Below, one piece after another: positions 7,901-50,426 of a stretch of DNA of 64,000 nt; positions within the stretch are counted from its first letter, which is position 1; the number at the start of each line of letters is the position of its first letter. Made by a program: the position numbers and the translations under genes. Source of the stretch: Naegleria gruberi. Taxonomy: Eukaryota. The stretch lies in the NCBI GenBank assembly GCA_000004985.1, contig GG738867.1. One strand, written 5' to 3'. The notes under the pieces are model-generated. The model had not been told where the DNA came from. It worked only from the letters and a program-made list of their open reading frames with translations, and made no database searches.

Positions 7901-9955
7901 CGTAACAAATCCAAGAGTGCTGCTAGATTAACTATTGAATTGACCCCAGAACAAATCAATTCTAATACCATCTTGAATAATAATATTGACCATCTTGTTA
8001 TTGATAAGATCTTTGTCAAGTCTGGTGAATTGAGTGATGATGCTATTGAAAGCTTTGTTAAGGGCTTGTGTGGCGTTTCTAATGATGAAATTAATCCAAA
8101 AGCTAATAGAATGACATGTACTGGTAACATTAATATTAATCCAGTACCAAGAACTTTCAGTTTGCAAAAGCTTATTGAAGTTGCTCACTATAATATTAAC
8201 AGAATCAAAATTGTTTGGTCCAAGTTGTGGGTTCACATGGGTAAACATTTCATCACTGTTGGTACACATGATGATTTGACTATTGCAATGAATGCTATTG
8301 ACTCTTTGAGACAACTTTCAATGAAATTCTTGGAACAAGACGAATTGGCTAACTATCACTTCCAACGTGACTTCCTCAAGCCATTCTTCCAAATTATTCA
8401 ACAAAGCAACAAGACTGAAATTAGATTACTCACTGTTGAATGTGTTGGTCAAATGATTTTGGGTAGATATAACAATATCAAGTCTGGTTGGAAGACAATT
8501 CTCCAAATCTTTGCTCAAGCAGCTTTGTGTGGATCACCAGTCACTGACGAGGGTTTTAGATATGTCACTGCAATGATGAAGGATGGTGGTGATGTTGATT
8601 ATTTCCATCAAATTCAACAAAACGAATCCTTTGTTGATTGTATCTTGTGTTTGACTGCTTTTGCTCGTAACTTGGCTAATACCAATATTTCCAAAAGTTC
8701 TATTGCACTTTTAAAGCTCTGTGCTCTTCATATTGTTAATAATAGAGTTGATGCTATCAAGAATGTTGACATTTACACTGATGAAGAAGTTCACTTCAAG
8801 TTGTGGTTCCCTATCTTGACTGGTCTCTCGCGATTGGTTAGTGACGATAGAAGAGAAGAAGTTAGAGCTAATGCTTTGAAGACTCTCTTTGAAGAAGTTC
8901 TCATTAACAGAAAGATTGGTGACAGATTCTCTCCAAAGCTTTGGAATTTCGTTTTCACTGGAGTTCTTTTCCCAATATTTGACGAAATCAAGCAAGCCAA
9001 TATCACTGATGAAAGCTGGATCAATACTACTTGTAGAAAATCCTTGAGCTTGATGGTCACATTATTTGCTCAATACTTTACATCCATTCCACAATTATTC
9101 GACAATATTCTCACCTTGATTAGTTCTCATTGTTTCTTTAGAGTTGAAGAGGATCAAGTCAATCAAAATACTGACTCTCCTTTGGTTGTTGAAAAGAAGA
9201 TTAAGAATGAAAAGCTTGCTGAAATTGGTAACGAGTCATTCAAGATTTTTGTTCAATTATGTGGTAAATTATTCAATGACCAACAATGGGATGCTGTTTG
9301 CAGAAGTTTGGAAAGTATTCTCACCATCAACCTTAAACTTAAGTCACCAATCGATAGCAGAATCCGTTTGAAGATTATTGAAACAACTAACGATATTCTC
9401 ACTACTCAATTCGATAACATGAAACTTGTTCACATTGAAAGTATGCTTGATTCATTGTTGAATTGTCATAACACCTCATTGGAATTCAACTCCAAGCAAA
9501 AGGGTAATGCTGAAAATGATTACGAGATTGAAATTGAAATGTTCTCCTGTACTGTTTATGTTAATATCTGTTCCAAGTTGTGCTCATCACCAAAAACAAC
9601 CGAAGAACTCTCTAAACGTCAAGAAGTTGGAGAAAATAGAATTATTGAGATTACCGAAAGAACTTTCATCAGATATTTACAACATATTGGTATTTTACAA
9701 TATTCTGGTAGTAATGCTGATTTAGATATTCAACAAGATACTGTCTTGTGTGGTAATAGATTAATGTCATCATTGGTTCCAACAGTTGTTTCTCTCCTCG
9801 AAGTTTACCTTTCATTCCCTGAAGAACAATTCCTCAAATACTTACCTAAATTCTACCCTCTTTTCACTAAATTATTGCTGACGCAACACAGAGAAATCAG
9901 ATTAGTTCTCCTTGACTTGTTCACTAGATTTGGTAAACAAGTTCTTTTGAAATAA
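4905..9955 (+). CDS. Brefeldin-A-inhibited (BIG/Sec7-family) ARF guanine-nucleotide exchange factor; 3 exons: 4905..5067, 5166..5994, 6049..9955
   Basis: Canonical Sec7 domain in the long ORF (FNRNPKKGIKYLVE...FRLPGEGQQIDRVVQKFAEKY...NTELHNP). DCB/HUS-like N-terminal regions align with BIG1 (DAFFIFRALCRLAMK.. / PDSLELKSRLLSLELIHNVLENSGPVFRTSE vs human DAFLVFRSLCKLSMK.. / PDPKSHELRSKILSLQLL..AGPIFRTNE). GTATGT donors at 5068 and 5995 with TAG acceptors give in-frame joins. About 1630 aa in total. Confidence 0.85.
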
Positions 9956-24839: not shown

Positions 24840-27075
24840 ATGTCATTGCTCCTCTCGTCATATTCTCGCTTCCAAAATGTTGAGATGATTGGTGCTGGGT
24901 CTGGTGGGACTGTTTTCCGTGCTTTTGATCAAGAAATTGGAAAACAAGTGGCCATCAAAGTGACTAAAAGTATTCAAGAAATGAAAATTGTAAGTAAATT
25001 CTTGTTACATTGTAATCAATGGACAATAATTTAATATATTATATTAATAGTATAATTATATTAAAACAAACAATATTCAAAATAATTACCTGGTTGAAAT
25101 TTATGATCATTTACAGAGTGGTGACGATGACTCTATTATTGTGATGGAGTATTTTCGAGAGGGAAATTTAGAAAATTGGTTGAAACAAAGAAAGAAACCT
25201 CTCAGTTGGCTCTTAATTTATAGTATCCTATTGCAATTAACATTCGGAATACACTACTTGCATTCCAATAAGATTTTTCATAGAGATTTAAAGTTGAGTA
25301 ATATTTTGGTGGTGGAGGAGGTTTGTGAACACATGGTGAGAGTAAAGATTGCAGATTTGGGATTATCGAAAATAGTGGATCATGATACAATCAAGCACTC
25401 CAAGGTTGGAACTCACTATTATCTTCCACCAGAAGTCAGACAACAAACCACTGAAGAAATTATACCAGAGAAAATTGATATTTGGAGTTTTGGAATTCTG
25501 GTTTTCAGATTATTGTCCAGAGATTTTACGTATGATGTGGCCAGCAAGTTGGTCAATAGTAAGGAGAAGGATTTTTGTGAGGATGTACTGATGAAGATGA
25601 TTCAGAATAATGAAAATGTTGATTGTGGGGTTGTGACTAATTTTGTAACATTTCTCACACCAACACTCAAATTGAAACCAAGCGAAAGGTATAATTCACT
25701 GGATTTATTCGATTTATGTTTCAATATTCCAAATAATGAGTCGTATGTCGATCAAGATACTATTGACCTACTTGTTGATTGTAGAGTTGATCCTTTGATA
25801 ATTGGAATTTGTTACTTTTCTCTCAAACAGACAGAAAAATCAATTCACTATCTCGAAAAAGTATTAGAGAACAAAACAGAAAATAACAATAGTGCAGAGA
25901 AGGGCTTTGCATGTGCAATCATGGCCTTTATAACACTGTTCAATGGTAAAAACAGAACCATTGTTAATTCAGAGAAAGAATACAAAGTCAATCCTGACTT
26001 TTTGAGATATATTGAATATGTGGAGAAATATTCAATTACTTTCAAGCTGTATCATTTGTTAAAATCAAAGCAATATTTTATGAGCCAGCATTATGAAAAA
26101 TCTATAGAACATGCAGACCAATGTATAGAACATATTGGCTCTGCCTCTAGTTTGAAAGCTTGTTGCTTGCATGGTTTAGGTTATTATGATAAAGCACTTG
26201 AGGTTATGAAGAAAATCAACCCAAAAACTGAAATGGATTACAGAAACATGTCATATATTTATTTGGTTGAATATCAAAATTATGAGGAGGCTTTAAAGTG
26301 TGCAAATAGTGCACTAGAACTCAATCCAGGAGTTCCTGATTTTTATTTACTGAAAGTATGCTGCCTCGCAAGTGCTGCTCCAAGTGAGGCTCTTACTTGT
26401 TTGAAGAATGCTCGAAAATTAATTGGAAAAGTAGGTGTATATTACTATCACAAGGGGAGAATCTATTTGAATATGGGGAGATTGGAAATGGCTCTTTCTA
26501 AATTAAATAAGGCCCAAGAATTAGGTGAGGAGAGTATGAATTTGATTGCAGTTTTGGAAATGGCATTGGGTAGATTACCTGAAGCTCTTATTTCAATCAA
26601 TAGATATTTAGAAAAGTATCCAAATAATATTACAGCCCATAACAACAAGTTCAAGATATTAATCATGCAAAATTTGACAGAGGAGGCGAAAATTGAGCTA
26701 GAATTAATTGAACATCTCAAACGTCTCAACATCAAAACTGAAAAAACCATCAAACAACAATTGTATTTTGAAAATGACAAACCTCCCATCTCAAACATCT
26801 CAAACACGAATATTAAGGAGTGTTATTTTGTTTCCAAAAACCATACCTTCAAAAGAAAGATTAAATTTAACTCTGTGGAAGATCTTTTGAAGCAATGCAG
26901 AAAAGAATTTCAAGACGAAACAATCACCACTTTTATTGACGAAAATTCACAAGTATGTGATTTAAAATTTGGAACTTTTATACATGGAAAAACCTATACT
27001 GTTACTGGTGATTTGTATATGGAACAAACTTCATATATGAGCTCGCTAATGAATTATCTTTTCCAAAAACGGTAA
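24840..27075 (+). CDS. Protein kinase with C-terminal TPR/Sel1-like repeats (cluster copy B, apparently intact); exons 24840..24989 and 25117..27075
   Basis: Exon 1 has a Gly-loop and VAIK (IGAGSGGTVFRA..KQVAIKV). GTAAGT donor at 24990 and CAG acceptor at 25116. Exon 2 has HRDLKLSNIL, DLG (IADLGLSK), a YYLPPEV activation segment and DIWSFGILVFRLL. About 400 aa of TPR-like helical repeats follow. Confidence 0.8.
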
Positions 27076-35069: not shown

Positions 35070-38000
35070 CTAAACCCAGTTGGTCTGTCTTCCTAAAGTA
35101 TAAATGTCTTGAAGAGTGGATGTAAAGGTATTTTTTTGTTTGAGTTCTAGGTACTTCTTGTAGAGTCTTAATGCAGTTCTGGCATCCTCTATACTGTCGT
35201 GCGTATCTTGTTGAATATCTTGATTCAATAAATATTTACAAAGGAATCTCAAAGAAATCTTTCTTTGATTTGGTAATCTATATAATTCTACAGTGTCAAT
35301 TATTTGTTCCTTAGGTACGAAAATGTTAATAATCTTAAAATCGTTTGGCAAGCCATGACCGATAAATTTAACCTTCTTCACATCAAGTAAATATCTCAAC
35401 TTGAGGTAGGTATTCTTAATATCAGTAACATGGTGGGTATTAGACTTGTTATTAATATCCAAGTCTCCAGCCTTCAATCCAGAGAATCGTGTCATGTAAT
35501 CTCCAATACGTTTCTCAGCAGTTGAAATGTAATCGTCAATGAGTATCTCCTCATTGAATGTAATAATACTGACTCTACCCAAACCAAAACGTTGTCCATC
35601 ATCAATTTGATCTTCCTTTCTTGTTCTAACAAATTCAGCATCAATAGATACAATATCACCACTAAAGTTTACAATAGTTTTGAATTCGTCATTGTTGAAT
35701 AGGGAGGTATTTTCAGAGATTGGATTTACAGGGTTTACAGTTGGTAGGACGTTCTGAATATCTTGTCTCACGTAGAAAAGTAATGCTGGTGTCTTCCAAG
35801 TTTGACTGTAGATAGTAACATCCTTTTCTTTCTGTGGACTGATGGAAAAATCGTTGAAGAGAACCCAATCATTTGCAATCTTGATGAGAGCTACACAGTG
35901 ACCATCAAAATTCTTTGAGAGAGAAATATTTTCATTTTCTTCCTCACATTCATCTTCTTCATTTTCATTCTCATTTTCAATATTTTCGTAATCTTCCTTG
36001 TTGGCACTTTCAATAATTTTGGTTGTTTGAGTTTTTGGAGCAGTTGACTTTTCTTGGAATGGATGTTTAACTTGGATAATAACAGCAGCCAAATTATAGG
36101 TGATGGACATTGGAGGTTTTCTCTTCTGCTTGGTATAGACCTCGGCAGGTTGAATGTTGTGAATTGACTCTTGTAATTGCTTTTGCTTTTCGTCATTATA
36201 GATAAATGGCTCCCATTGATTCTTATCAGTACCGTGAATAATTGTAAAGTGGAGAGGTATGGTGGTATTTGTCAATTCATTTACAGTATGTTGTGTTCTT
36301 ATCCATCTAATGTCTTCTTCTCTTGCTGGTACAGTGAAGTTGAAAATATTAGGCAATGTCAACAAGCTTCCAGAGCTATTGTTGAGATAATCTTTCAACA
36401 TGACTTCAAAGTTGTCGTATGGATATTGTGGATTGACGCTCTTGAGCTTGTTATCAAAGTTAGTATCAACAGTTTTTTGAGTTTGAACTTCAGAACCAAA
36501 GAGAATGTCTACCATTGTTCTTTGTCTTCTCTTGTTTTGCTTCTTCAAGAGTTGAATGTTACTATTGTTGGTTGCTATAACTTGTTTCTTATTGTTTGGT
36601 GTGCTTCTCAAAAAATTGTAATTTGGTGAAGCAAAGATATATGGATAGGTCATGGAATAACTAAAGGTGGATGCTGATAAAAATTCCTTGTGAAGTTGTT
36701 TGATAATGTATGAGTGGAACTTTTGGATTGTTTCTATACAGGAAATTTTGCTACTCTTTTCATTCAAAAAGGTAAGTTCGAGATTTTGAATAGTTCTATA
36801 CAAGTTGGTAGCTTCTACTGCCTTCTTTTCAGTCTTTTCTGCTTGTTCAATCATGGTGAACAGGAAGCCAAGTTCTGAGGCAATACAGTTAGTCTTCTCA
36901 GATAGATGGTTCATGAGGCACACTCTCAATTGGGGAACAATGTGGTAGAGCACTTGGACGTAGGCATTAAAGATGGATGCTATTTCTAGGCCATTTTCTA
37001 ATCCAACAAATTTAGTGTCGTTATATTTTGAATAGTCAAATTCTTGGAAACGAAGTCTATTGTTGTGTTTAGCAACGTTCAAAGAGAACTCCTTTGGAAT
37101 GACACGCAAAACTCTTGAAAGTTTCTTCTTTGATTTGACATTGTCTTGTGCAAAATCTTTAAATGTTCTTCTTTCTAAATAGCCATCAATGACACGTTTT
37201 AGACCTGGGTTAATACTGGTTCCATAACTAATTTTAGAGTTGGGAGGGTTCTTATATTGAAGATTTTCTAAAATTTGGGGATGTATCTCAAGTGGATGTT
37301 GTCCAACCATGTAGGAATAATTTGGCCAATCAGACAACAGGGATGATCCATCATTTGTAACTTCTTCATCGTCAACGAGTTTGTGTAAATTCAATGGCTT
37401 GAAATCGTCATCGAAAGAAGATTGGTTTTGTGTTGAATAAAAGTGAAGAGTATTGGATGTATCTGCAAATGTCAATACATTTCCTGTTGTGCTAATATCA
37501 AATGATTGAATACCATTAGAATTATCTTGGTCAAATATTTGATAGAGGTTACCATCAGAATTTTGGTATCTATGATCAAATGAAGCTTGTAAATCTTTGA
37601 ATTGGAAATAACCTGTTTGAGATACCATCATTAAGAGTGAGTTGACTCTTGGATGGAATCCCAAAAATGTTGGATCAAGTTGGAAGTGAACTTGACCAAG
37701 CATTCTCAAAGTTCTAAGATCGTATGCTTTTACCATATTGTCAACACTTAGCTCACCATATCTATTGTTAAAACCACAAGTGACCAAGACATTATCTTTG
37801 ATGGCAATATCATTAATGGTACCTGTGTGGACTTCAAAAGAGTGTTCACTCTTGAGTGTTCTTGGATCTCTCAAGGACAATTCTCCCAAAGTACCACCAC
37901 AGCATACATATCTTCCTCCAGTTTTCATTACACAAATACCTTGATTGGTTTCTACTTGGAGACCCATCTTTTGAGCATTTAAATCAAAACTAAAGAGCTT

Positions 38001-38633
38001 GGTGAAATTACCTCCCATGATGAGAGAGTATTGTGATCTACTGCCAGATGATGAATTTCCTGGTGTGTGATCTGAATTGAATGCACATGACAATAATTGT
38101 TCACCAAATAGTTTAGAATCTTCATAGCTGTATCTGTATAGACCACCTCTTGTATGAACAGCAAAACCATTTGAACACAATGAATAAATTCTCTCCTTTT
38201 GAACGATCAATTGTTTGACATCGTAATTGGGTTCAAATGCTCTGAAGGAACAATACTTTTCCATGTTTGGATAATAGTAACCTGTGATTCTACCGTTTGA
38301 TGATCCTGTCCAAATGCACTCATCATAATTGTCTGTTACAACAACACGATTATCGTCTGGAGTGTCTACAGATGGCAGTTGACACCAATCTCCACTATTT
38401 GATTGTCTAGTATTTGAATAAAAATCATCGTTTGAATATCCATAACCATAGTTTACCATTTGACGTTGATAATTCTGTTGTTGTTGATAATAATATGGAG
38501 ATGATTGTTGCTTTCCTAGAGATGGTGATCGTTGTGGAGATCCACCACCTTGGTAATTATTCTTTCTTCCATTGTTTCCATATGAAGAACCTCTATAATT
38601 TGATTGTTGTGGTGAATATTGATTATAATACAT
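35070..38633 (-). CDS. PAN2: PAN2 (poly(A)-specific ribonuclease subunit of the PAN2-PAN3 deadenylase)
   Basis: 1187-aa uninterrupted ORF with the PAN2 architecture: N-terminal WD40-like region; central inactive UCH-like region; C-terminal DEDD exonuclease (IVSIDAEFV...; ...HDSIEDARTALRLYKKYLELK). Gln/Tyr-rich low-complexity N-terminal extension. Confidence 0.85.
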   Translation of the reverse strand: MYYNQYSPQQSNYRGSSYGNNGRKNNYQGGGSPQRSPSLGKQQSSPYYYQQQQNYQRQMVNYGYGYSNDDFYSNTRQSNSGDWCQLPSVDTPDDNRVVVTDNYDECIWTGSSNGRITGYYYPNMEKYCSFRAFEPNYDVKQLIVQKERIYSLCSNGFAVHTRGGLYRYSYEDSKLFGEQLLSCAFNSDHTPGNSSSGSRSQYSLIMGGNFTKLFSFDLNAQKMGLQVETNQGICVMKTGGRYVCCGGTLGELSLRDPRTLKSEHSFEVHTGTINDIAIKDNVLVTCGFNNRYGELSVDNMVKAYDLRTLRMLGQVHFQLDPTFLGFHPRVNSLLMMVSQTGYFQFKDLQASFDHRYQNSDGNLYQIFDQDNSNGIQSFDISTTGNVLTFADTSNTLHFYSTQNQSSFDDDFKPLNLHKLVDDEEVTNDGSSLLSDWPNYSYMVGQHPLEIHPQILENLQYKNPPNSKISYGTSINPGLKRVIDGYLERRTFKDFAQDNVKSKKKLSRVLRVIPKEFSLNVAKHNNRLRFQEFDYSKYNDTKFVGLENGLEIASIFNAYVQVLYHIVPQLRVCLMNHLSEKTNCIASELGFLFTMIEQAEKTEKKAVEATNLYRTIQNLELTFLNEKSSKISCIETIQKFHSYIIKQLHKEFLSASTFSYSMTYPYIFASPNYNFLRSTPNNKKQVIATNNSNIQLLKKQNKRRQRTMVDILFGSEVQTQKTVDTNFDNKLKSVNPQYPYDNFEVMLKDYLNNSSGSLLTLPNIFNFTVPAREEDIRWIRTQHTVNELTNTTIPLHFTIIHGTDKNQWEPFIYNDEKQKQLQESIHNIQPAEVYTKQKRKPPMSITYNLAAVIIQVKHPFQEKSTAPKTQTTKIIESANKEDYENIENENENEEDECEEENENISLSKNFDGHCVALIKIANDWVLFNDFSISPQKEKDVTIYSQTWKTPALLFYVRQDIQNVLPTVNPVNPISENTSLFNNDEFKTIVNFSGDIVSIDAEFVRTRKEDQIDDGQRFGLGRVSIITFNEEILIDDYISTAEKRIGDYMTRFSGLKAGDLDINNKSNTHHVTDIKNTYLKLRYLLDVKKVKFIGHGLPNDFKIINIFVPKEQIIDTVELYRLPNQRKISLRFLCKYLLNQDIQQDTHDSIEDARTALRLYKKYLELKQKNTFTSTLQDIYTLGRQTNWV

Positions 38634-39408: not shown

Positions 39409-42103
39409 ATGAGCAAAAAGATAGTGCCCATTTTGAGTCTGTATGAGCCTACTATATCAGATTCCGATCAGGTGTTAGCTTCAGGTCGATCAGCTCGTTA
39501 CCAAGGAAAACTCCAATTACATTCATCTACTGCATCCATCTACAAAACACCTTCATTAGCTCATATGACAACCACGGCTAGTATTAGATCTTCCGTAACT
39601 GATTTAGTCAAGTTCAATAGGCTCTCTCCTCATTTAAAACCTGAAGAGGAAGGGAAAGAGGAAAGAGTTTCCAAGTTTTTCTTATCAATCAAGTTTTTCC
39701 TGATTTTAATTATTTGTGGAATTGTAATTATGAGCTCTGTAGTTTTATCATCGACATGGATTGGAGCTTTATTGCCCTCAATCTGGGGGTTGAGTAATAG
39801 TGTAAAGGACAAACAAGTATTTGAGATAGTGAATAATATCAAAGAAACCATACAGGAGGTGCTGATCGTTTCTTCAGCAACAAAAAGTCAATTAGTTCAT
39901 TCACTGAATTATACAGACAGAGCTTGGATAGAAAAGCACATGTATACCATCTACAAATCTGAGTTGGATTTTCACAAGGATTTAATGATTACAACATACA
40001 TTGGAGATAATTTGGGAACTTGTTATGGAATAATAACATGGGATTCAAAAGTAGCCTTAGTGCACACCAACCTGAATGATCAGCAGTTATATTTTTGTGA
40101 GGATGTTGTAACATATGATTATTGTAAACGCAATTCAAAACCTGATATTACTTTAGGCAAATTTGAAATGTCAGAAATAGTTGAAACTGCAAACCTTTAT
40201 GCAGGATTTCCAGCATTTACACTGAGCTATGCAGATCGTACAATGCCTCAGTATGTGTTTATTAGTTTGATTAATAGTTGGAAAAGAGCTGCTCCTGTGA
40301 ATGGAACCAATTTTGACTATTATTTTGGATATGATATCAGTGTTGCAACCTTAACAACTCATGTTGAAAAGATTTTGGATCGTTCATATGGGGATAGATT
40401 TGCAATTGTAGAAACTGCTACTAATTACGTTATAGCAATGGATCACACAACACAATTTCTTTCTTGGGATTCGGATCGTTATACTCGAATGAGTATAAAT
40501 TCAGTCCAAGACACACAAATGAAATACATCTTCTCACAGATTAGTGGTGACTACTCATCAATGAAGACTGTCAAATGTAATAATCAAGAGTATCTGTCTA
40601 AGGGTGGATATTTCATAGCTCTTCATCGTTACTGTACTGGAAATAACATTGATTGGATGATTGTCTATACAGGTTTGTTTTAATAGATTGAATTGAAAAT
40701 AACACAAATTCTTCAGTTCCTGAATGGAATTTTACTGGAAGTTTTATTGTTGGCATGTTATCAGCTTTAACTGGAACAGTATTGATAATGATTGTAAGCG
40801 CAATTGTTGGAATTATTGTTTCATATAGAATTGTGAGACCATTCAATAACCTTATTGAACTATTTGAGAGTGTTTCTCATATGGATTTAGACAGATTGAC
40901 CGTTTCGAAAACCTACTTTTCAGAAGTTGTTAAACTCCAGAAAAACTTTTTATTTATGGTGAATAGAATTAGAAGTTACAAAAGCTTCATTCCTCCTCAC
41001 TTGATCAGCCAAATAGAGAATGGAGGAATGGAAATTCCCGAAGTTGAAGATCCAAGCACTTCACGGCAGCAAAGTGAGGGATATAATTCGAACAATTCTC
41101 TATCAAGTACTGGAAGTTTACGGAAAACTACTCTTGCGAAGAGTGGAAAGAAGAAGTATATTGCTTCAAAAACAATGTTCTCTCTACACTTGGAAATAAG
41201 GCAGGTTACAATCGTTACCATATTAATGGAAGGACTCAATGAAATGTTGAATGAAGCAAATGCTAAAGAGGTTGTGAATTTGTTGAGTGATGTATTTCTG
41301 GAGATTAGTACTGCCGTAAAACCAAAAGGAGGTCAACTAATTGGAACTGATAATGACATGTTTACCATTTCATTTAATGCTTCGACTGATCTTTCAAGGC
41401 ATGAAGAAAAAGCTCTTTCAGCATCTCAATTATTGAGAGACAAGTTATCGAAGCTAAAATCAATCAAATGGAAAAATTTGGAATATTGGAAGAAACATAG
41501 TTTCTTTTTGGATAAAGTCGTTTTCAGAACAGCTATCCTTTGCCAACAATCTCAAACTGGAAATATTGGTACCTCTGACTCAAAAACTTTTACAATTATT
41601 GGAAGTTTCAAATATAATGCTGATGCTTTGCTTGAGGTTGCCCAACGTTTAGATTTGGATGTGGTTGTCACTGAAAGATTATACTCTCAATTTTCCCATT
41701 TGTACTATATGAGATTTGTAGACAGTGTCGACTTGGCAAACGACTCCATGTACACCTCACCAAAGTTTAAAGAGGATAATATCTATGTTGGGAATGTGTT
41801 TGAAGTTGGTGACTTGTGTGAAACAAAAGCAGATGGTAAGTTTTCTAATTTCATTTTAATTAATTGTTATTTCTGATTTTAGAATGGATGTACGAATTGG
41901 AGGAACAAGGAAAGAAAGAAAAATGGAAAATCTACAATAAGGCTTGTGATTTATTCTTTGAAATGGTACATACAGAAGCTATAGAGCTATTTGAAGAATT
42001 CCTTCATCAACACAACCAAACAGCTTCTACCATTGATAAACCAGCTCATCATCTTATCAACGTATGTAGATCACAAATGGAAGAAGAAGAAAAAAGAGAG
42101 TAA
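39409..42103 (+). CDS. Receptor-type class III nucleotidyl cyclase-like protein (TM - extracellular sensor region - TM - HAMP-like - cyclase-homology domain); exons 39409..40672, 40717..41835, 41883..42103
   Basis: GTTTGT donor at 40673 with CAG acceptor at 40716, and GTAAGT donor at 41836 with TAG acceptor at 41882; both are phase 1 and restore the frame. TM1 is FFLILIICGIVIMSSVVLSS. About 300 aa lie between the TMs. TM2 is GSFIVGMLSALTGTVLIMIVSAIVGIIV, followed by a HAMP-like VRPFNNLIELFESVSHMDLDRL. The cyclase-homology region is VTIVTILMEGLNEMLNEANAKEVVNLLSDVFLEISTAVKPKGGQLIGTDNDMF..., in which the first metal-binding Asp of the FADIVGFT motif appears to be replaced. Confidence 0.55.
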
Positions 42104-42554: not shown

Positions 42555-44018
42555 ATGTTTCAAGAAGAACACCACCAACACCAGTTCGGTAAATTGCTTA
42601 TTGGTAGCATGCTGCTATTGATGTGTTGCTGCTGTGTGATGATGGGTGAGGTTAGTGCAACACTTGAGGTTACGAGGGCTGAGAAACAAGCAGTTACATC
42701 TAAGGGAATTTTGCAAATTCAAGCAATTTCTAGACACTGTGATAGATTGCCAGTTTCAGAGTTGAATATTCCTAATGATCCGATTGATTTTGAAAAGATT
42801 TCCAAGTTGAAATTGGGTGAGTTAACTGGTTTGGGACAATATCAATGCAATCAAATGGGTAATAACCTGTACAATAGATACATCAGTGAACAATCATTGA
42901 ATAGAGTTAGAGGTATTTCAACACAATATGTATCAAGTGATTATTCATTTAGATCAACAGATTTAGATAGAACATTGATGAGCATGTGGTCTGTTTCAAT
43001 GGGTTTATTCAAGCAAGGAACTGGAAATACACCAATTGTTAATTTTATGAATGTAAATGATTTGGAAGGTAATTCAATGTTTTCACTTCCAAATGGTACT
43101 CAAGCAGTTCCTGTTCACACAGTTCCACAAGAGTCGGATTCAGTCTTGATTGGATATCAATTTTGTAACAGCGTAATGAAAAGAATGCATGCGGTGAATA
43201 CTCAATCAGCTATTGAATATTTCAATAAGAATCGTCAATTAATTAATGAATTGTTCAAGGTTACTGGATGGGATGCCTCTAAGGGTGATTTATCTTTGGC
43301 AACACTTGTTGATGTTTTAACAGTTCAAAAATCTCACAATTTACTTTCTCTCCAATGGGTTCATGAACATTGGGATGAGATTTGTGCATTGAGAGATGGA
43401 TATTTGAAATTAATTTATACCTATCCAGTATTTGGAAGAGAAGGAAGTAGTGATCTTGTTACATTGATGAATTACAATGTTGCTCAGACCAAAGTCAAGT
43501 ATTATCACTACTCGGCTCATGACACTACTCTGCAAGCACTTGCTGCCAGTTTGAAATTAACTGCTGATTATCCTTATTTGGCCAATCAACCAGGTTATGG
43601 ATCATTCATGGTTATGGAATTACATGAAATGAGTGATGGATCTAAGGCTGTCAGATTTGTTCATGCCAAGCAATTTAATGATACTTCATTCACTCCTCTC
43701 ACAATGACCTCATTGGGTTGCAAGAGTGAATATTGTCCATTAGAACAATTTTCTGAGCTAGTTAGTGAATATTCAATGGTCCCTTCTGATTCAACATGGT
43801 GTATGGAATGTAAAAATTCAAATAGAGATTTGTGTGCTAGCGAATTTATTCAAACCTACCAAGAATCCAATAAGGCATTGATGATTACCACTCCAATTCT
43901 TGCCTTTACTAATCTTTGCACCATTTTTATCATGATTGCAGTAATTGCTTGTTGCATTAGAAAGAATAGAAAACTAGCAAACCAACAACAAGATGCCATG
44001 TATCATGGAATGAAATAA
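42555..44018 (+). CDS. Histidine acid phosphatase (branch-2, lysosomal/prostatic acid phosphatase-like) with signal peptide and C-terminal TM anchor
   Basis: N-terminal hydrophobic leader; RHCDRLP (a variant of the RHGxRxP catalytic motif) and a downstream HD motif (YSAHDTTLQAL); C-terminal TM helix ILAFTNLCTIFIMIAVIACCI followed by a basic tail. Confidence 0.7.
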   Translation: MFQEEHHQHQFGKLLIGSMLLLMCCCCVMMGEVSATLEVTRAEKQAVTSKGILQIQAISRHCDRLPVSELNIPNDPIDFEKISKLKLGELTGLGQYQCNQMGNNLYNRYISEQSLNRVRGISTQYVSSDYSFRSTDLDRTLMSMWSVSMGLFKQGTGNTPIVNFMNVNDLEGNSMFSLPNGTQAVPVHTVPQESDSVLIGYQFCNSVMKRMHAVNTQSAIEYFNKNRQLINELFKVTGWDASKGDLSLATLVDVLTVQKSHNLLSLQWVHEHWDEICALRDGYLKLIYTYPVFGREGSSDLVTLMNYNVAQTKVKYYHYSAHDTTLQALAASLKLTADYPYLANQPGYGSFMVMELHEMSDGSKAVRFVHAKQFNDTSFTPLTMTSLGCKSEYCPLEQFSELVSEYSMVPSDSTWCMECKNSNRDLCASEFIQTYQESNKALMITTPILAFTNLCTIFIMIAVIACCIRKNRKLANQQQDAMYHGMK

Positions 44019-46601: not shown

Positions 46602-49600
46602 TTATAAAATTTCCTTTCTTTGAGCATTGGGTGGTTCTCTAATTCTGGCAATTTTGATGAATTGCTCGACAGTCATGGTGCTTCCATAGAGTGCAGAGGC
46701 TTCTCGTTGTTGCTTTTGGATCATCATTTGGATTTGGAAAACTGGTTGGATGGCAAAGTCAACTCGACACTTTTCCAATCTGTTCATGGCTGTGGCAAGT
46801 TCTTCAAATTTGGCCCATCGAATCATGTTATTGTGATGTTTCACATAGGTTTCAGTTGAGTAAAAGTAGCTCAATTCTTCCTGTTGTAAAAAATCCATAA
46901 AATGATTCTGAATATACATGAGCTCTCTCAAGTGAGCTTCAACAATTGGAAGACAAGGAGTTCTGCATCCATCAAATAGGTCATTATAATTCTGATATCG
47001 AGAATCTTCAACAACTACTACATCGATATGATAATTGGATGGATCAAATCCGAAAAAGATGTCATATTTGGATTTGAAATGAATGAGGGATGGAGTTGGC
47101 ATGTGAGAGAAGGAAGAATCTTTTGATTTGGCAGTATGGTGATCCTCATAAAAGACTACGAGTGGATTAGTTTCCACTTCTTCAGCTTCATTGTCATCCT
47201 CTGAGGCAATTTGTTGCTGTTTGATTGAGTTGTTGACACTTGTTGGAATTACTCTGACAGTGCTTATTGATTCCTTTCTTCTGACAATATTTGGAGATGG
47301 AAGGGAACTTTCTACATTGACAGAAGTGGAACTATTGATAGAGAATGAGTCGAATGAGCCTGATTTTCTCATTTCTTGAACAATGGTATGGCTGTGTTTT
47401 GGGTGACCGAGATTTCTCACAATACTCTTGAAACTAAAGTTGGCATTTCCTTTGAATTTCTTTTTGGATTCATCGACAGTATGGTAGAGATTTTCCTTAA
47501 TGGCTGGATGTGAAAAGATGGTAGCAAGTGCATGGGCAGCACCATAGTTTTGCATATTGTACAATTCAATAATGATTTGCTTAATCTTGATGATCAATTC
47601 AACACGATCCTTGATGTGTGGTTTATCCAAGACATCACACATAAGCCAATTAGCTCTATCGTGGATCAACTCGAGATATTGACACAATTTAGGACAATTC
47701 ATCTTGAAATATTGAGATCTAAAATTGGAAATGGCCATATTGAAATCCAAGTAGCCATACGTCTTTTTACAATTCTTTACAGAGAGAATGGAATAATTCA
47801 AAAATTCAACACTCGAAATTTCACTATAAAAGTAATAATCCATAATAGTGAATTGTCTAGATAATTCTACAGGTGACACATCTGACCATTTGAGAGAGGA
47901 TGAAAAGACATTTGGAGGAATGTTTGGTCTTGGACATTTTGACGAGTCCATGTAAATGGTTTTGTAAAAGTGATAATATTCGTCAGTGTTGGTATTATCA
48001 TCATCAAGATTTTCATCGGTATCAATTGAAGTTTCCAAGGCATTCCTCTTTCCTCTTCTATTGTTGCCATTAGTGAAGATTACATCAGAATCTGATTCAG
48101 ATAAATGGGACGAGAAGAAATTAGACAACTTATCAGAGAATGACTCTGTGTCGGTCTTTTCAATTTCCAGCGAAGTGAATTGGGTATATTCCTTAATGCT
48201 GACCTTCTTTCTCAGATTCTTCTTACCTAAAATTGTTGCCATTTTCTTTTTCAATGTTGTATTGATAGTTTCACATAATTCGAGTGCATTTCCAACTTTT
48301 GATAGAGTCACAACCGAGTCTGGAATCTTGCTTGACTCAACCTTTTTCAATAAGTGTAGGGATTTTATCTGTTCGATAATCTTTGAGAGAAATTCGAACA
48401 TGTTTTGATTCCATTGATAGTAATATTCCGATAGCCAATAGCTCAACACATCGAGACAACAAATAATAATTTCAATACACTCTACAGTTTCCAAAAGTTT
48501 TGACATTGTGTTGGTAATTCTATCAACGTGTTCACCGACTGATTCTTCAAGAATATTATCATTAGTGACATCAGTAGAGGAAAAGACTCCCTTACTATCT
48601 AATCCGAAATTTTTCATGATCAAGATGAGTGGAAGACTCAACCTTTCGAATATTTTCAATAGGAGACCATCTGGAGACAGAATGTGAACATATCCCCTGA
48701 AGAATGCCTTTCTAAAAGTGTCCTTTGTTTCGATTCTTGTCTCAGGACGTACACAATTCTCTCCAAATACTTCGAAATAATCATTAGCAACAGTATCGTA
48801 TTCTCTGAAACGAATCTTACTCATAGTATCGAATAGTCTGTGCTCAGTGACTGTAACCATTTCAATGAGTTTGTTCAAAGTCAATCCAAATAAGACGTTG
48901 TGATTCTTATCGTCGTCTTTGAATGTATAAAAATTGGAGAATGAGTCAAATAATTCATGATGTTCTCCAGTGCTTTGATTCTTCCTCTCTATGAATAGTT
49001 TTCGTTGTTTGATATCATTTGAGGTCAGAGTTTCGAATGCAATCTTGGGAATGTTTGAGAACTCCTCCCAATAGGAAGGTTTCAGAGAGAGCTTGTTAGA
49101 TTGAGAACGAAGGAGGAATTTTTGGAAGAAATTTTGAGTTACTGTTTTCGAAGGAATGAAAGTGTTTCTTCTGATGGTACTTTCTCTCACTCTCGATTTG
49201 GCAGGCGAGAGAGGAGAATTTTTGCTCGATAAAGTGCTAGCTCTTCCATGAATGGAACGAAGCTTTTCCAATGTTTCGGCAGCTGTTGGTCTTCCAATAG
49301 GATTAGGATCCAATAATTTACAAATCAATTCGGCCAATTCAGTTCCATTAGTTACACATTCCATAACTTGTTGTCTGAGTTGGGCATGGAAATTCACATT
49401 CTGATACACCTCAATGTAAAATTGTCTATTCAAGACTTGGAACAAGAGTTCATAAAATACACAACCAAGAGACCACATATCTGTCGAATATCCATATGGT
49501 TCCTGGGACATCATTTCTGGTGAGCAATATTTAACAGTACCCAGAAGAGTTTGTTCAGAGCTAAAGCTTTGTGGAACAAGAAGCTGGTCAGTGTGAATAC

Positions 49601-50426
49601 TGCCATTATTCCTATTGAAAAAATTACCTCTTTCCTTTTCCAATTCTACTGCTTCTTCACTGGTGGAGAATTTCATCTTTTTCATAGTTTCAAAATCTCC
49701 AATCTTGATCGACTTTTCATCATTGGTAACAAAAATGTTACTCGGCTTTAAATCCAAATGTACAAATCCCTCGGAATGCAAATACTTGACACCCTCTGCA
49801 ATTTGAATCATGTAACTCAATAATTGATCTCTCGAAATGACTTCAAATATTGAATTGACATGACAATTATTCGTACTTTCGTATTGTTTAGTTTTCTTCT
49901 TCAAATAGGTATCCAAATCACCATGTTTAAAGTATTCCATTTGAAAGCAAATCCAATAACTTTGTTTCTTATCAACAAGCTGACTCAAATTCTCAACTTG
50001 CATCTTGATAGATGATGATGAATCGGAAGAAATTGAACCTGCTTCAGCAATTTCATTCTCATCCTCATCGTCATCTTCACTTCCAACAAGTAATTTGGAT
50101 TTTTCACTAGCTTCATTCTTTGTATTGGCAACAAACTGATTACCATTCACATTCCCAGTACCAGTACCAACACTATTTCCTCCTCCACCTCCTCCCAAAT
50201 TAGAATTACTATTCGAATTATTTGTATTCATAATATTTGCAAACTTTTCAAAAAAGATATCTTCAATTTCTACAAGATTTGGCGACTTTAAATGTCTCAA
50301 TTTCCATCCCTCAGATATAAATCTGTTCAACTCATCCTCCGAGTAGCATTGTGTCTTTTTGAGAACTTTTGTAATGTGCTCTCGGGTGACAATGACGAGA
50401 ACCATTTGTTGATTATTCTTCATCAT
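46602..50426 (-). CDS. Protein kinase - RasGEF (CDC25-homology) fusion protein; the 5' end possibly extends upstream
   Basis: 1274-aa ORF. Kinase C-lobe motifs YLHSEGFVHLDLKPSNIF, IGDFETMK, GTVKYCSPE and DMWSLGCVFYELL. Gly/Asn-rich insert. RasGEF N-terminal-like region and a CDC25 catalytic domain (..NMQNYGAAHALATIFSHPAIKENLYHTVDE.. / ..PCLPIVEAHLRELMYIQNHFMDF). The reading frame stays open for about 70 codons upstream of the first Met without another ATG. Confidence 0.65.
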   Translation of the reverse strand: MMKNNQQMVLVIVTREHITKVLKKTQCYSEDELNRFISEGWKLRHLKSPNLVEIEDIFFEKFANIMNTNNSNSNSNLGGGGGGNSVGTGTGNVNGNQFVANTKNEASEKSKLLVGSEDDDEDENEIAEAGSISSDSSSSIKMQVENLSQLVDKKQSYWICFQMEYFKHGDLDTYLKKKTKQYESTNNCHVNSIFEVISRDQLLSYMIQIAEGVKYLHSEGFVHLDLKPSNIFVTNDEKSIKIGDFETMKKMKFSTSEEAVELEKERGNFFNRNNGSIHTDQLLVPQSFSSEQTLLGTVKYCSPEMMSQEPYGYSTDMWSLGCVFYELLFQVLNRQFYIEVYQNVNFHAQLRQQVMECVTNGTELAELICKLLDPNPIGRPTAAETLEKLRSIHGRASTLSSKNSPLSPAKSRVRESTIRRNTFIPSKTVTQNFFQKFLLRSQSNKLSLKPSYWEEFSNIPKIAFETLTSNDIKQRKLFIERKNQSTGEHHELFDSFSNFYTFKDDDKNHNVLFGLTLNKLIEMVTVTEHRLFDTMSKIRFREYDTVANDYFEVFGENCVRPETRIETKDTFRKAFFRGYVHILSPDGLLLKIFERLSLPLILIMKNFGLDSKGVFSSTDVTNDNILEESVGEHVDRITNTMSKLLETVECIEIIICCLDVLSYWLSEYYYQWNQNMFEFLSKIIEQIKSLHLLKKVESSKIPDSVVTLSKVGNALELCETINTTLKKKMATILGKKNLRKKVSIKEYTQFTSLEIEKTDTESFSDKLSNFFSSHLSESDSDVIFTNGNNRRGKRNALETSIDTDENLDDDNTNTDEYYHFYKTIYMDSSKCPRPNIPPNVFSSSLKWSDVSPVELSRQFTIMDYYFYSEISSVEFLNYSILSVKNCKKTYGYLDFNMAISNFRSQYFKMNCPKLCQYLELIHDRANWLMCDVLDKPHIKDRVELIIKIKQIIIELYNMQNYGAAHALATIFSHPAIKENLYHTVDESKKKFKGNANFSFKSIVRNLGHPKHSHTIVQEMRKSGSFDSFSINSSTSVNVESSLPSPNIVRRKESISTVRVIPTSVNNSIKQQQIASEDDNEAEEVETNPLVVFYEDHHTAKSKDSSFSHMPTPSLIHFKSKYDIFFGFDPSNYHIDVVVVEDSRYQNYNDLFDGCRTPCLPIVEAHLRELMYIQNHFMDFLQQEELSYFYSTETYVKHHNNMIRWAKFEELATAMNRLEKCRVDFAIQPVFQIQMMIQKQQREASALYGSTMTVEQFIKIARIREPPNAQRKEIL

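What the first reader, a model, noticed from the sequence alone, without database searches (positions are those of the whole stretch)
39409..42103. Receptor-type adenylyl/guanylyl-cyclase-like protein with HAMP-like linker and apparently degenerate catalytic Asp
The protein has two TM helices bracketing an approx 300-aa extracellular region (a possible Cache/CHASE-like sensor), then a HAMP-like helix and a class III cyclase-homology domain. The segment aligned to the canonical F(A/T)DIVGFT metal-binding motif reads ILMEGLNEM, so the first Asp seems to be lost. A second Asp-containing stretch (IGTDNDMF) is shifted. This could be a pseudo-cyclase or a regulatory subunit, or a cyclase that uses non-canonical residues. 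Sensor-linked cyclases are a hallmark of protists with large sensory repertoires.
Basis: partly seen in the sequence, partly recalled or inferred. Interest (0 to 1): 0.6.

Follow-up and report, generated by a model that had tools for sequence, protein, structure and literature searches.

The report
Receptor with a dead cyclase domain
This Naegleria gruberi gene encodes a membrane receptor with a bacterial-style outside sensor whose inside "cyclase" domain keeps the enzyme fold but has lost residues needed for catalysis; it belongs to a large, conserved family, so it probably signals without making cAMP or cGMP.

Summary
Window 39409-42103 (+) carries a three-exon gene (introns of 44 and 47 nt) encoding 867 aa. 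It is 99% identical to the uncharacterised N. gruberi protein XP_002677353.1 (NAEGRDRAFT_67478).

Domain order:
- disordered N-terminus
- TM1
- TM2
- HAMP-like segment
- low-complexity linker
- conserved DEWxYEL motif plus one TPR-like repeat

In the CHD:
- The first metal-binding Asp is Leu591.
- The substrate Lys is Gly631.
- The transition-state Arg is Ala725/Leu726.
- The second Asp (D635) and Thr714 are kept.

None of the 121 closest family representatives that cover the CHD has the canonical first Asp, the Lys or the Arg. These include Naegleria paralogues, Percolomonas and metagenomic relatives, some with NIT sensors or ankyrin repeats. The domain is nevertheless under strong purifying selection (dN/dS about 0.10).

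Best reading: a dCache chemoreceptor with a non-catalytic pseudo-cyclase output domain. The Cache-HAMP-cyclase architecture in Naegleria and Euglena is published. The family-wide loss of catalytic residues and the TPR-like tail appeared in none of the papers my searches returned. I rate it a new variant of a known kind, of moderate interest.

The parts
39409..40672 (+). Exon 1 (aa 1-421 plus the first base of codon 422). It encodes the disordered cytosolic N-terminus, TM1 and almost all of the dCache ectodomain.
   Evidence: ORF and splice model; 99% identity to XP_002677353.1.
40673..40716 (+). Intron 1, 44 nt, GT..AG, phase 1.
   Evidence: Removing it restores the frame and the conserved junction IDWMIVYT|VPEWNF seen in all five Naegleria homologues.
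40717..41835 (+). Exon 2. It encodes the end of dCache, TM2, HAMP, the linker and the degenerate CHD.
41836..41882 (+). Intron 2, 47 nt, GT..AG, phase 1.
   Evidence: Removing it creates the family-wide conserved motif D-E-W-M-Y-E-L across the junction.
41883..42103 (+). Exon 3. It encodes the rest of the DEWxYEL motif, the TPR-like tail and the stop codon.
39682..39756 (+). TM1 (about aa 92-116).
   Evidence: Kyte-Doolittle 19-residue window maximum 2.83. It is one of only two hydrophobic segments in the protein.
39760..40727 (+). Extracellular double-Cache (dCache) sensor domain, aa 118-425 (spans intron 1). Two Cys pairs are invariant (C230/C239 and C390/C409), and the classic Cache motifs are present (FTxSYxD, then ISLxNS, then YFGYDIS).
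40740..40820 (+). TM2 (about aa 430-456).
   Evidence: Kyte-Doolittle maximum 2.60.
40821..41018 (+). HAMP-like domain (aa 457-about 510) and the conserved Y-R/K-x-F-I-P-x-H-L connector (to aa 522).
   Evidence: The family profile's only real PDB match is the NarQ HAMP domain (residues 174-228), but at E 0.13. Pfam HAMP is the family hit most often among relatives: 7 of 30, best E 0.0014. F, P and H of the connector are invariant in 30 relatives.
41019..41177 (+). Low-complexity Ser/Asn/Lys-rich linker (aa 523-575), inserted between the connector and the CHD.
   Evidence: It is poorly conserved and variable in length among homologues, with dN/dS 0.30.
41178..41822 (+). Degenerate class III cyclase-homology domain (aa 576-790).
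41223..41225 (+). Codon TTA = Leu591, at the position of the first metal-binding Asp (F-x-D-I-x-G-F-T).
   Evidence: Alignments to CyaB and CyaC, to canonical bacterial cyclases and by hhalign. Among the 121 relatives the commonest residues at this column are K/R/Y/H/L/F; 7% carry D or E (8 proteins's listing), none of them with the rest of the canonical set.
41355..41357 (+). Codon GAC = Asp635, the retained second metal-binding Asp, inside the conserved D-N-D (E-N-D in relatives) turn.
   Evidence: It aligns with the G-D Asp of CyaB, CyaC and canonical CHDs. It is acidic in 64% of the near subfamily and is Asn in the second group of Naegleria paralogues (P0003-P0005).
41616..41630 (+). Codons N722-A-D-A-L726, the region of the transition-state Asn and Arg. 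The Arg is absent (Ala725 or Leu726). Asn722 is present but one residue out of register in ungapped alignments.
   Evidence: HMMER places N722 on the Asn and L726 on the Arg with a one-residue gap. hhalign and hmmalign place Y721 on the Asn and A725 on the Arg. At column 726 none of the 121 relatives has a basic residue: the column is L/M/I/V. At the alternative column 725 basic residues occur in 21%.
41823..42100 (+). C-terminal tail (aa 791-867; spans intron 2). It holds the near-invariant D794-E-W796-x-Y-E-L motif followed by one TPR-like helix-turn-helix (W809, Y812, A815, A827, D846, C856).
   Evidence: Conservation across 98 relatives, for example W796 at 96%, D846 at 97% and A827 at 94%. 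The tail profile hits the TPR proteins YbgF (E 1e-5), SRP72 (E 3e-5) and CDC27. TPR_2, TPR_6 and TPR_1 are the commonest Pfam hits among the tails.

Best explanation
The gene encodes a type-II-like, two-pass transmembrane chemoreceptor of Naegleria gruberi. It descends from the bacterial-type 'dCache - HAMP - class III cyclase' receptor cyclases, but its cyclase domain has become a pseudo-enzyme.

Shown here:
- an extracellular double-Cache sensor;
- a HAMP-like transmitter directly after TM2;
- a cytosolic domain with the class III cyclase fold;
- that domain lacks the first metal-binding Asp (Leu591), the substrate-binding Lys (Gly631) and the transition-state Arg (Ala725/Leu726);
- the same three losses occur in all of the closest 121 family representatives;
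- the domain, the sensor and the HAMP segment are under equally strong purifying selection.

Inferred:
- A homodimer cannot assemble a canonical two-metal active site, so the protein does not make cAMP or cGMP at a meaningful rate.
- Ligand binding to the dCache domain is instead relayed through TM2 and HAMP to the dimeric pseudo-cyclase domain, which acts as a conformational switch or scaffold.
- Its state is read out by protein-protein contacts, most plausibly through the almost invariant DEWxYEL motif and the single TPR-like repeat at the C-terminus.
- Heterodimerising with, and thereby regulating, catalytically competent cyclase paralogues is a second possible read-out.
- Retained pocket residues (D633-N634-D635, E593, T714, N722, G703-N-x-G706) may still bind a nucleotide or metal as an allosteric ligand.
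For: - Gene model and identity.
- Two TM segments.
- HAMP-like segment: the only real PDB match is the NarQ HAMP domain; Pfam HAMP is weak but the commonest hit among relatives.
- Catalytic positions were mapped with a positive control. Canonical bacterial cyclases aligned to the same HMM show D, K, D and T at the expected columns, where the candidate has L, G, D and T.
- Family-wide loss: among the 121 representatives covering the CHD, the first-Asp column is mostly K/R/Y/H/L/F, the Lys column mostly S/N/G/H, and the column aligned to the Arg is L/M/I/V with 0% basic residues.
- Purifying selection (N. fowleri against N. lovaniensis positional orthologues): dN/dS is 0.099 for the CHD, 0.107 for dCache, 0.087 for TM2+HAMP and 0.157 for the tail, against about 0.30 for the disordered N-terminus and linker. 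Synteny with PAN2 is kept in three species.
- Modular use of the same HAMP / pseudo-CHD / tail cassette with other inputs: a NIT sensor in N. fowleri P0168 and N-terminal ankyrin repeats in P0055, P0068 and P0081.
- Tail conservation and TPR similarity.
Against: - No biochemical data exist, so inactivity is inferred from sequence only.
- One metal Asp (D635), Thr714 and probably Asn722 are retained.
- The near subfamily conserves an unusual acidic/polar cluster around the former active site: D/E at 593 in 64%, D/E at 633 in 89%, N634 in 78% and N722 in 89%. This could mean residual or altered catalysis, or ligand binding.
- The CHD model is only of moderate confidence (mean pLDDT 66.5), and no dimer model could be made.
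- The roughly 50-aa low-complexity insertion between HAMP and the CHD would interrupt the rigid helical coupling that canonical HAMP-cyclases use, so how the signal reaches the CHD is unclear.
- No partner for the TPR-like tail is known.
- HAMP assignment is statistically weak (E 0.13).
Confidence: 0.62

Rival explanations
1. It is a regulatory, non-catalytic subunit that works only as a heterodimer with a catalytically competent class III cyclase paralogue. This would resemble mammalian AC C1/C2 or soluble guanylate cyclase alpha/beta: the protein contributes one face of a single shared active site or blocks it, so the dCache ligand tunes cAMP or cGMP output of the partner.
For: - The candidate keeps residues that a 'C2-like' partner supplies (T714 and probably N722) and one metal Asp (D635).
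- Published work describes many nucleotidyl cyclases, including Cache/HAMP types, in N. gruberi and relatives (PMC6366073, PMC4822843).
- A metagenomic relative sits 4 kb from a canonical receptor cyclase gene (L001).
Against: - The protein has neither a complete 'C1-like' set (first Asp missing) nor a complete 'C2-like' set (Lys and Arg missing). Both composite sites of any heterodimer would therefore lack at least one key residue.
- The two Naegleria paralogue groups do not complement each other.
- None of the 121 nearest relatives has an intact set that could serve as a dedicated partner.
- No co-expression or interaction data exist.
Confidence: 0.2
2. It is still an enzyme. In this reading the active site has been rebuilt with relocated acidic residues (E593 two residues after the lost Asp, plus D633 and D635). 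It would catalyse cyclisation, or another nucleotidyl-transfer or hydrolysis reaction, without the canonical Lys and Arg.
For: - The near subfamily conserves D/E at 593 (64%), D/E at 633 (89%), N634 (78%), D/E at 635 (64%) and N722 (89%), all around the former catalytic centre.
- dN/dS is as low as for the sensor.
- Some mycobacterial class III cyclases tolerate non-canonical substrate-specifying residues (my own knowledge, not tested here).
Against: - E593 is Gln in the second group of Naegleria paralogues (P0003-P0005), where D635 is Asn.
- The more distant half of the family has no conserved acid at 593, 633 or 635.
- To my knowledge no class III cyclase is active without the first metal Asp, and the transition-state Arg is absent in every member.
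- The candidate fails the Pfam Guanylate_cyc model entirely.
Confidence: 0.1
3. It is a decaying or mis-predicted gene: a pseudogene or an annotation artefact with no function.
For: - The candidate sequence alone has no Pfam domain.
- The public model contains a dubious 27-nt intron.
- No expression data were available.
Against: - The 867-codon reading frame is intact, with two clean GT..AG introns.
- Positional orthologues sit next to PAN2 in N. fowleri and N. lovaniensis.
- dN/dS is 0.16 overall and 0.10 in the CHD.
- More than 100 relatives at the 50% identity level have the same architecture.
Confidence: 0.02

Closest known systems
Bacterial-type dCache/Cache1 - HAMP - class III nucleotidyl cyclase receptors. 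Examples are the Cache-containing adenylate cyclase noted in Naegleria by Upadhyay et al. 2016 (PMC4822843) and the 'pan-eukaryotic' TM-Cache1-HAMP-NCIII subfamily of Euglena and N. gruberi (Ebenezer et al. 2019, PMC6366073). M. tuberculosis Rv2435c is a bacterial example named in PMC4822843.
   Same: The domain order and topology are the same: TM, extracellular Cache-type sensor, TM, HAMP, then CHD. The pre-CHD connector resembles the '...F/Y-x-P-x-x-L...' segment of bacterial class IIIb enzymes. The closest solved CHDs are the bacterial CyaB and CyaC.
   Different: - The first metal Asp, the substrate Lys and the transition-state Arg are lost here and in all 121 nearest relatives.
- A roughly 50-aa low-complexity insert separates HAMP from the CHD.
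- There is an additional conserved DEWxYEL plus TPR-like tail.
- The candidate passes no Pfam threshold for dCache_1, HAMP or Guanylate_cyc.
Degenerate halves of heterodimeric class III cyclases: mammalian adenylyl cyclase C2 (PDB 1ab8, 1cs4) and the soluble guanylate cyclase beta subunit (3uvj, 6pas).
   Different: Those subunits keep the Lys/Glu, Asn and Arg that they donate to the shared site. This protein lacks the Lys and the Arg as well, so it cannot fill that role fully. No dedicated partner has been identified.
Class III adenylyl cyclase-like ATP-binding protein of Pseudomonas aeruginosa (PDB 6yii), a non-catalytic CHD in a regulator.
   Different: It is a soluble bacterial transcription-regulator architecture with no sensor, TM or HAMP. 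It is a much weaker structural match than the true cyclases. Nucleotide binding by the Naegleria protein is untested.
dCache chemoreceptor ligand-binding domains (PctD 7prq; PctA, McpU and TlpC).
   Different: Sequence identity is about 10% and the ligand is unknown. Two invariant Cys pairs suggest eukaryotic-style disulfides. The output is a pseudo-cyclase rather than an MCP signalling domain.

Membership tests
Class III nucleotidyl cyclase catalytic domain (CHD, Pfam PF00211) | Beta-alpha-beta-beta-alpha-beta CHD fold | tested here: met
Class III nucleotidyl cyclase catalytic domain (CHD, Pfam PF00211) | Significant sequence match to the family model | tested here: inconclusive
   The candidate alone gives no Pfam hit at E<=10 and PDB phmmer E about 1. 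The family profile is significant against CyaB (E 4.4e-7), and hhalign against canonical CHDs gives 95.3% probability and E 2.2e-8. Some relatives pass the Pfam cutoff (P0050 at 28.3 bits and P0081 at 29.7 bits, against a cutoff of 21.9).
Class III nucleotidyl cyclase catalytic domain (CHD, Pfam PF00211) | First metal-binding Asp (F-x-D-I-x-G-F-T) | tested here: not met
   The residue is Leu591. At this column 7% of the 121 relatives carry D or E, none with a canonical set; the commonest residues are K/R/Y/H/L/F.
Class III nucleotidyl cyclase catalytic domain (CHD, Pfam PF00211) | Second metal-binding Asp (K-x-x-G-D) | tested here: met
   Asp635 aligns with the Asp of CyaB, CyaC and canonical bacterial CHDs. 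It is not conserved family-wide: 40% of relatives have an acidic residue here.
Class III nucleotidyl cyclase catalytic domain (CHD, Pfam PF00211) | Substrate-specifying Lys (AC) or Glu (GC) | tested here: not met
   The residue is Gly631. In the family this column is S/N/H/V/G, with 4% basic residues.
Class III nucleotidyl cyclase catalytic domain (CHD, Pfam PF00211) | Second substrate-specifying residue (Asp/Thr in ACs, Cys/Ser in GCs) | tested here: met
   Thr714 aligns with the Thr of class IIIb enzymes.
Class III nucleotidyl cyclase catalytic domain (CHD, Pfam PF00211) | Transition-state Asn | tested here: inconclusive
   Asn722 matches the Asn only if a one-residue gap is allowed. Ungapped hhalign and hmmalign alignments put Tyr721 there.
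Class III nucleotidyl cyclase catalytic domain (CHD, Pfam PF00211) | Transition-state Arg (N-x-x-x-R) | tested here: not met
   The residue is Leu726 or Ala725, depending on the register. In the 121 relatives column 726 has no basic residue; the alternative column 725 has basic residues in 21%.
Class III nucleotidyl cyclase catalytic domain (CHD, Pfam PF00211) | Measured cyclase activity | not testable with these tools
   This needs an enzyme assay.
dCache_1 / double-PDC extracellular sensor domain | Long N-terminal helix plus two PAS-like (PDC) modules, located between two TM helices | tested here: met
dCache_1 / double-PDC extracellular sensor domain | Match to the Pfam dCache_1 model | tested here: not met
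   The candidate gives no Pfam hit. Relative P0050 shows only a sub-threshold MCP-like_PDC_1 match (18.6 bits against a cutoff of 27). The sequence profile against PDB found no Cache domain.
dCache_1 / double-PDC extracellular sensor domain | Defined ligand-binding motif (for example the amino-acid or amine signature) | not tested
   No structural superposition or docking was possible, so the ligand is unknown.
HAMP domain | Roughly 50-aa two-helix unit immediately after the last TM, with a Pro in AS1 and a Glu at the start of AS2 | tested here: met
   RIVRP464F...FSE491V...L-Q-x-x-F-x-x-M lies directly after TM2. The Pro is nearly invariant and the Glu is invariant in 30 relatives.
HAMP domain | Significant match to a HAMP model or structure | tested here: inconclusive
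   The only real PDB match of the family profile is the NarQ HAMP domain (174-228), but at E 0.13. Pfam HAMP matches 7 of 30 relatives, best E 0.0014. The candidate itself gives no hit. No structure model of this segment was made.
TPR repeat | 34-residue helix-turn-helix with the W/Y/A/F/A/P consensus pattern | tested here: met
   The tail profile matches YbgF TPR (E 1e-5), SRP72 TPR (E 3e-5), CDC27 and consensus TPR proteins. TPR_2, TPR_6 and TPR_1 are the commonest Pfam hits among the tails. Helices are predicted at aa 811-821, 825-839 and 848-867. There is only a single repeat, so this is not a TPR array.
Pseudo-enzyme (non-catalytic CHD) | Fold retained, catalytic residues lost across the family, and the domain under purifying selection | tested here: met
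   Fold. Losses in all 121 relatives. dN/dS 0.099.
Pseudo-enzyme (non-catalytic CHD) | Demonstrated lack of catalysis | not testable with these tools
   This needs biochemistry.

The most novel reading that the evidence does not exclude
These proteins would form a previously unrecognised class of heterolobosean chemoreceptors. More than 100 representatives at the 50% identity level were found, with dCache or NIT sensors and some with cytosolic ankyrin repeats. In this reading the class III cyclase domain has been repurposed into a non-catalytic, ligand-switched output module that signals independently of cyclic nucleotides by recruiting partners through its invariant DEWxYEL / TPR-like tail. 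A less likely variant is that the conserved E593/D633/N634/D635 cluster forms a rebuilt active or ligand-binding site with a new chemistry.
Probability: 0.4. Interest if true: 0.65.

Novelty: new variant of a known kind. Interest (0 to 1): 0.45.

Why it matters
Naegleria and its relatives carry very large repertoires of receptor-type cyclases, and these are usually counted as cAMP or cGMP sources. This analysis shows that one sizeable and well-conserved branch keeps the sensor, transmitter and cyclase fold but has lost residues that every known active class III cyclase needs.

If these are true pseudo-cyclases:
- Cyclase counts in these genomes overestimate cyclic-nucleotide output.
- The family would be an example of a eukaryotic receptor that uses a dead cyclase domain as its signalling output. 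That offers a tractable system for asking how pseudo-enzymes transmit signals.

The family includes members in the pathogen N. fowleri (P0001, P0005, P0012, P0053, P0168). Extracellular dCache receptors there could be relevant to chemosensing, but this is speculative.

Tried and rejected
- Single-sequence searches were nearly blind. Pfam gave 0 hits at E<=10, and PDB phmmer gave only E about 1 to CyaC. Family profiles were needed.
- The word-indexed homologue search returned only 5 Naegleria proteins and missed the self-match. The exhaustive representative search revealed the real family size: 5684 hits at E<=1e-3 and 126 at E<=1e-30.
- A second word-indexed search with a 34-sequence profile added only a few bacterial canonical cyclases. 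These were useful as positive controls for residue mapping.
- A third search with the tail profile alone found nothing. Whether canonical cyclases share the DEWxYEL/TPR tail therefore remains unknown.
- The sequence profile of the ectodomain against PDB gave only a chance-level hit to a periplasmic binding protein (E 0.087). The dCache assignment rests on the predicted fold.
It was re-run with the exon-1-only segment.
- The AFDB Foldseek library was unavailable, so no taxonomic survey by structure was made.
- Exact look-ups of the neighbouring ORFs (PAN2, histidine phosphatase) were not in the collection. The organism was identified through cluster members of P0018.
- A literature search for the locus tag found nothing. 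No searched paper used the terms 'pseudocyclase' or 'pseudo-cyclase', and none of the listed 'cyclase homology domain' papers concerns a protist receptor of this kind.
- The pseudogene reading was rejected on dN/dS and synteny.
Full report
**1. What is at the coordinates**

The window has 33% G+C and is eukaryotic. ORFs at 39409-40683, 40755-41876 and 41864-42103 on the + strand join into one reading frame if two short GT..AG introns are removed (40673-40716, 44 nt; 41836-41882, 47 nt). The result is an 867-aa protein.

The protein is 99% identical to the N. gruberi 'predicted protein' XP_002677353.1 / EFC44609.1 / D2VF26 (NAEGRDRAFT_67478, 858 aa). The window is therefore N. gruberi, and the gene is annotated but uncharacterised. 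The only difference is that the public model splices out 27 nt (40251-40277; QYVFISLINS becomes H). That segment is conserved in all homologues and forms a beta-strand of the sensor model, so the extra intron in the public model is probably wrong.

**2. Architecture**

- Two, and only two, hydrophobic segments are present, at about aa 92-116 and 430-456.
- The 310 residues between them gave an AlphaFold model with mean pLDDT 76.5 and pTM 0.72.
  - No Pfam Cache model is matched, and the sequence profile finds no Cache structure. The classic Cache motifs are nevertheless visible (FTxSYxD…ISLxNS…YFGYDIS).
  - Two Cys pairs are invariant, which fits an extracellular location.
- Directly after TM2 lies a roughly 55-aa segment with the HAMP landmarks: a Pro in helix 1 and a Glu at the start of helix 2.
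  - The only real PDB match of a 30-sequence profile is the NarQ HAMP domain, over its whole length but at E 0.13.
  - Pfam HAMP is the family hit most often among relatives, though weakly (7 of 30).
  - I call it HAMP-like.
- A conserved Y-R/K-x-F-I-P-x-H-L connector follows (F, P and H invariant). After it comes a poorly conserved Ser/Asn-rich insert of about 50 aa.

**3. The cyclase-homology domain**

The single sequence is nearly undetectable: Pfam gives 0 hits and PDB phmmer gives E about 1 to CyaC. Family-level evidence is clear.

- A profile of six Naegleria sequences matches P. aeruginosa CyaB at E 4.4e-7 and Spirulina CyaC at E 2.4e-4.
- hhalign against six canonical bacterial and eukaryotic CHDs gives 95.3% probability and E 2.2e-8 over 170 columns.

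So the homology to class III cyclases is real.

**4. Catalytic positions**

I mapped these by three independent alignments. As a positive control, canonical cyclases aligned to the same family HMM show D, K, D and T in the expected columns.

| Canonical position | Candidate residue | Status |
|---|---|---|
| First metal Asp | Leu591 (ILMEG) | lost |
| Substrate Lys | Gly631 | lost |
| Second specificity residue | Thr714 | retained, as in class IIIb enzymes |
| Transition-state Asn | Asn722 with a one-residue gap, otherwise Tyr721 | ambiguous |
| Transition-state Arg | Leu726 or Ala725 | lost |

Three of the six canonical residues are lost and one is uncertain.

**5. It is a family trait, not an accident**

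An exhaustive HMM search of 1.84 billion representatives with the full-length profile found 5684 proteins at E<=1e-3, 967 at E<=1e-10 and 126 at E<=1e-30. I examined the best 150.

- 121 of them cover the CHD.
  - At the first-Asp column the commonest residues are K/R/Y/H/L/F. Only 7% carry D or E, and none of those has a canonical set.
  - Basic residues occupy 4% of the Lys column.
  - No basic residue occurs at the column aligned to the Arg (726). The alternative column (725) has basic residues in 21%.
- The named members examined are Naegleria paralogues and Percolomonas:
  - N. gruberi P0003, P0022 and P0154;
  - N. fowleri P0001, P0005, P0012, P0053 and P0168;
  - N. lovaniensis P0002, P0004, P0006 and P0009;
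  - Percolomonas cosmopolitus P0113.
  - The others looked up are unnamed metagenome or SRA assemblies. In the one case checked, these lie on a eukaryote-like contig.
- The same HAMP / pseudo-CHD / tail cassette is also combined with other inputs. N. fowleri P0168 has a NIT sensor, and P0055, P0068 and P0081 have N-terminal ankyrin repeats.

The most conserved CHD residues are N642, H650, G703-N704-x-G706, K711, G717 and R754.

**6. Selection**

N. fowleri and N. lovaniensis carry positional orthologues next to PAN2, as in the window. Nei-Gojobori dN/dS between them:

| Region | dN/dS |
|---|---|
| CHD | 0.099 |
| dCache | 0.107 |
| TM2+HAMP | 0.087 |
| Tail | 0.157 |
| Disordered N-terminus | 0.32 |
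| Linker | 0.30 |

(All.) The degenerate domain is as constrained as the sensor. That excludes decay and argues for a retained, non-canonical function.

**7. The tail**

After the CHD comes a nearly invariant D794-E-W796-x-Y-E-L motif, followed by about 60 residues with the pattern W809…Y812…A815…A827…D846…C856. A profile of 28 tails matches TPR proteins: YbgF at E 1e-5, SRP72 at E 3e-5, plus CDC27 and consensus TPRs. TPR_2, TPR_6 and TPR_1 are the commonest Pfam hits. It is a single TPR-like repeat with a capping helix, which makes it a plausible protein-docking element. A word-indexed search with the tail alone found nothing. I could not determine whether canonical cyclases share it.

**8. 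Mechanism**

Shown:
- the receptor topology, the dCache fold and the CHD fold;
- the loss of the first metal Asp, the Lys and the Arg in the whole family;
- purifying selection on the domain;
- modular reuse of the cytosolic cassette.

Inferred:
- A homodimer cannot build the two-metal site of class III cyclases. The protein is therefore most likely a pseudo-cyclase receptor.
- Ligand binding at the dCache domain would be relayed by TM2 and HAMP to a dimeric CHD that acts as a conformational switch.
- That switch would be read out through the DEWxYEL/TPR tail or through contacts with other proteins.

Rivals:
1. It is a regulatory subunit that heterodimerises with an intact cyclase. This is possible, but the protein offers neither a full C1-like nor a full C2-like residue set, and no complementary paralogue was seen.
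2. It has a rebuilt active site. The near subfamily conserves acidic and polar residues at 593, 633, 634, 635 and 722, which I cannot explain. These are not conserved in the second group of Naegleria paralogues (P0003-P0005) or in the distant half of the family.
3. It is a pseudogene. This is refuted.

One open problem is how a signal crosses the disordered roughly 50-aa insert between the HAMP connector and the CHD.

**9. Comparison with what is known**

The TM-Cache-HAMP-class III cyclase architecture is published for Naegleria and Euglena. PMC4822843 describes 'a bacterial-type adenylate cyclase' as the single Cache protein of Naegleria. PMC6366073 describes a Cache1/HAMP/NCIII subfamily related to N. 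gruberi genes. UniRef labels several orthologues 'Guanylate cyclase domain-containing protein'.

Three things appeared in none of the papers my searches returned:
- the family-wide loss of catalytic residues;
- the TPR-like tail;
- the fact that many more Naegleria proteins carry a dCache fold than profile searches detect.

Non-catalytic CHDs have precedents: AC C2, sGC beta, and the P. aeruginosa AC-like ATP-binding protein 6yii, which appears. Those differ in context and in which residues are kept.

**10. Verdict**

The gene is a divergent, annotated-but-uncharacterised N. gruberi receptor with a dCache sensor and a conserved, catalytically degenerate cyclase domain. It is a member of a large heterolobosean family.

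- Novelty: new variant of a known kind.
- Interest: moderate (0.45). It should be notable for pseudo-enzyme and cyclic-nucleotide specialists and it is testable, but it is not a new principle.

Noticed in passing
window 40251-40277 (+): The public N. gruberi model XP_002677353.1 (858 aa) splices out a 27-nt GT..AG 'intron', replacing QYVFISLINS with H. The removed residues are conserved in all Naegleria homologues and form a Cache beta-strand in the model, so the annotated mini-intron is probably spurious and the protein is 867 aa.
   Followed up: yes
window 35070-38633 (-) and loci L002 and L003: The divergently oriented neighbour is PAN2 (PAN2_N, UCH_1 and RNase_T domains in the orthologous loci). 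The PAN2 / pseudo-cyclase gene pair is syntenic in N. gruberi, N. fowleri and N. lovaniensis. The downstream neighbour differs: a histidine acid phosphatase in the window (42555-44018) and calreticulin in the other two species.
   Followed up: partly
aa 593, 633-635 and 722 of the protein (window 41229-41231, 41349-41357, 41616-41618): In the 45 closest relatives an acidic/polar cluster around the former active site is conserved even though the canonical residues are gone: D/E at 593 in 64%, D/E at 633 in 89%, N634 in 78%, D/E at 635 in 64% and N722 in 89%. It may mark a residual metal- or nucleotide-binding site. This is unexplained.
   Followed up: partly
proteins P0168 (N. fowleri), P0055, P0068 and P0081 (metagenome/SRA): The same HAMP / degenerate-CHD / TPR-tail cassette is fused to other inputs. 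N. fowleri P0168 (764 aa) is named 'Nitrate/nitrite sensing protein domain-containing'. In P0055, P0068 and P0081 roughly 400-aa N-terminal cytosolic ankyrin-repeat arrays precede the receptor.
   Followed up: partly
L001:929-5662 (metagenome contig Ga0606064_0145): A distant family member (P0070) lies on a compact eukaryote-like contig. About 4 kb away is a 1577-aa Peripla_BP_6 / ANF_receptor / Guanylate_cyc receptor cyclase gene. Other neighbours are a PH-kinase, a zuotin-like DnaJ-Myb protein and an EGF/REJ protein.
   Followed up: no
L002 and L003 compared with the window: Intron positions differ between species. The N. fowleri and N. lovaniensis orthologues have an intron at about aa 311-322 of their proteins (inside the dCache region). 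N. gruberi has none there but has the 44-nt intron at the end of the ectodomain.
   Followed up: no
window 25141-27075 (+), 46602-50426 (-) and 6065-9955 (+): Other signalling and trafficking genes in the window are a protein kinase with C-terminal TPR repeats, a kinase-RasGEF fusion (1274 aa), a BIG/Sec7 ArfGEF and a Sec5/Vps51-like protein. There is no other cyclase-like gene among the ten large ORFs scanned.
   Followed up: partly
one search compared: The word-indexed protein search missed the annotated N. gruberi protein itself. Its 90% cluster is represented by a 373-aa bacterial-style ORF call (P0018, identical to window ORF 40755-41876, which reads through intron 2). This is a caveat for using that index on eukaryotic genes.
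   Followed up: yes
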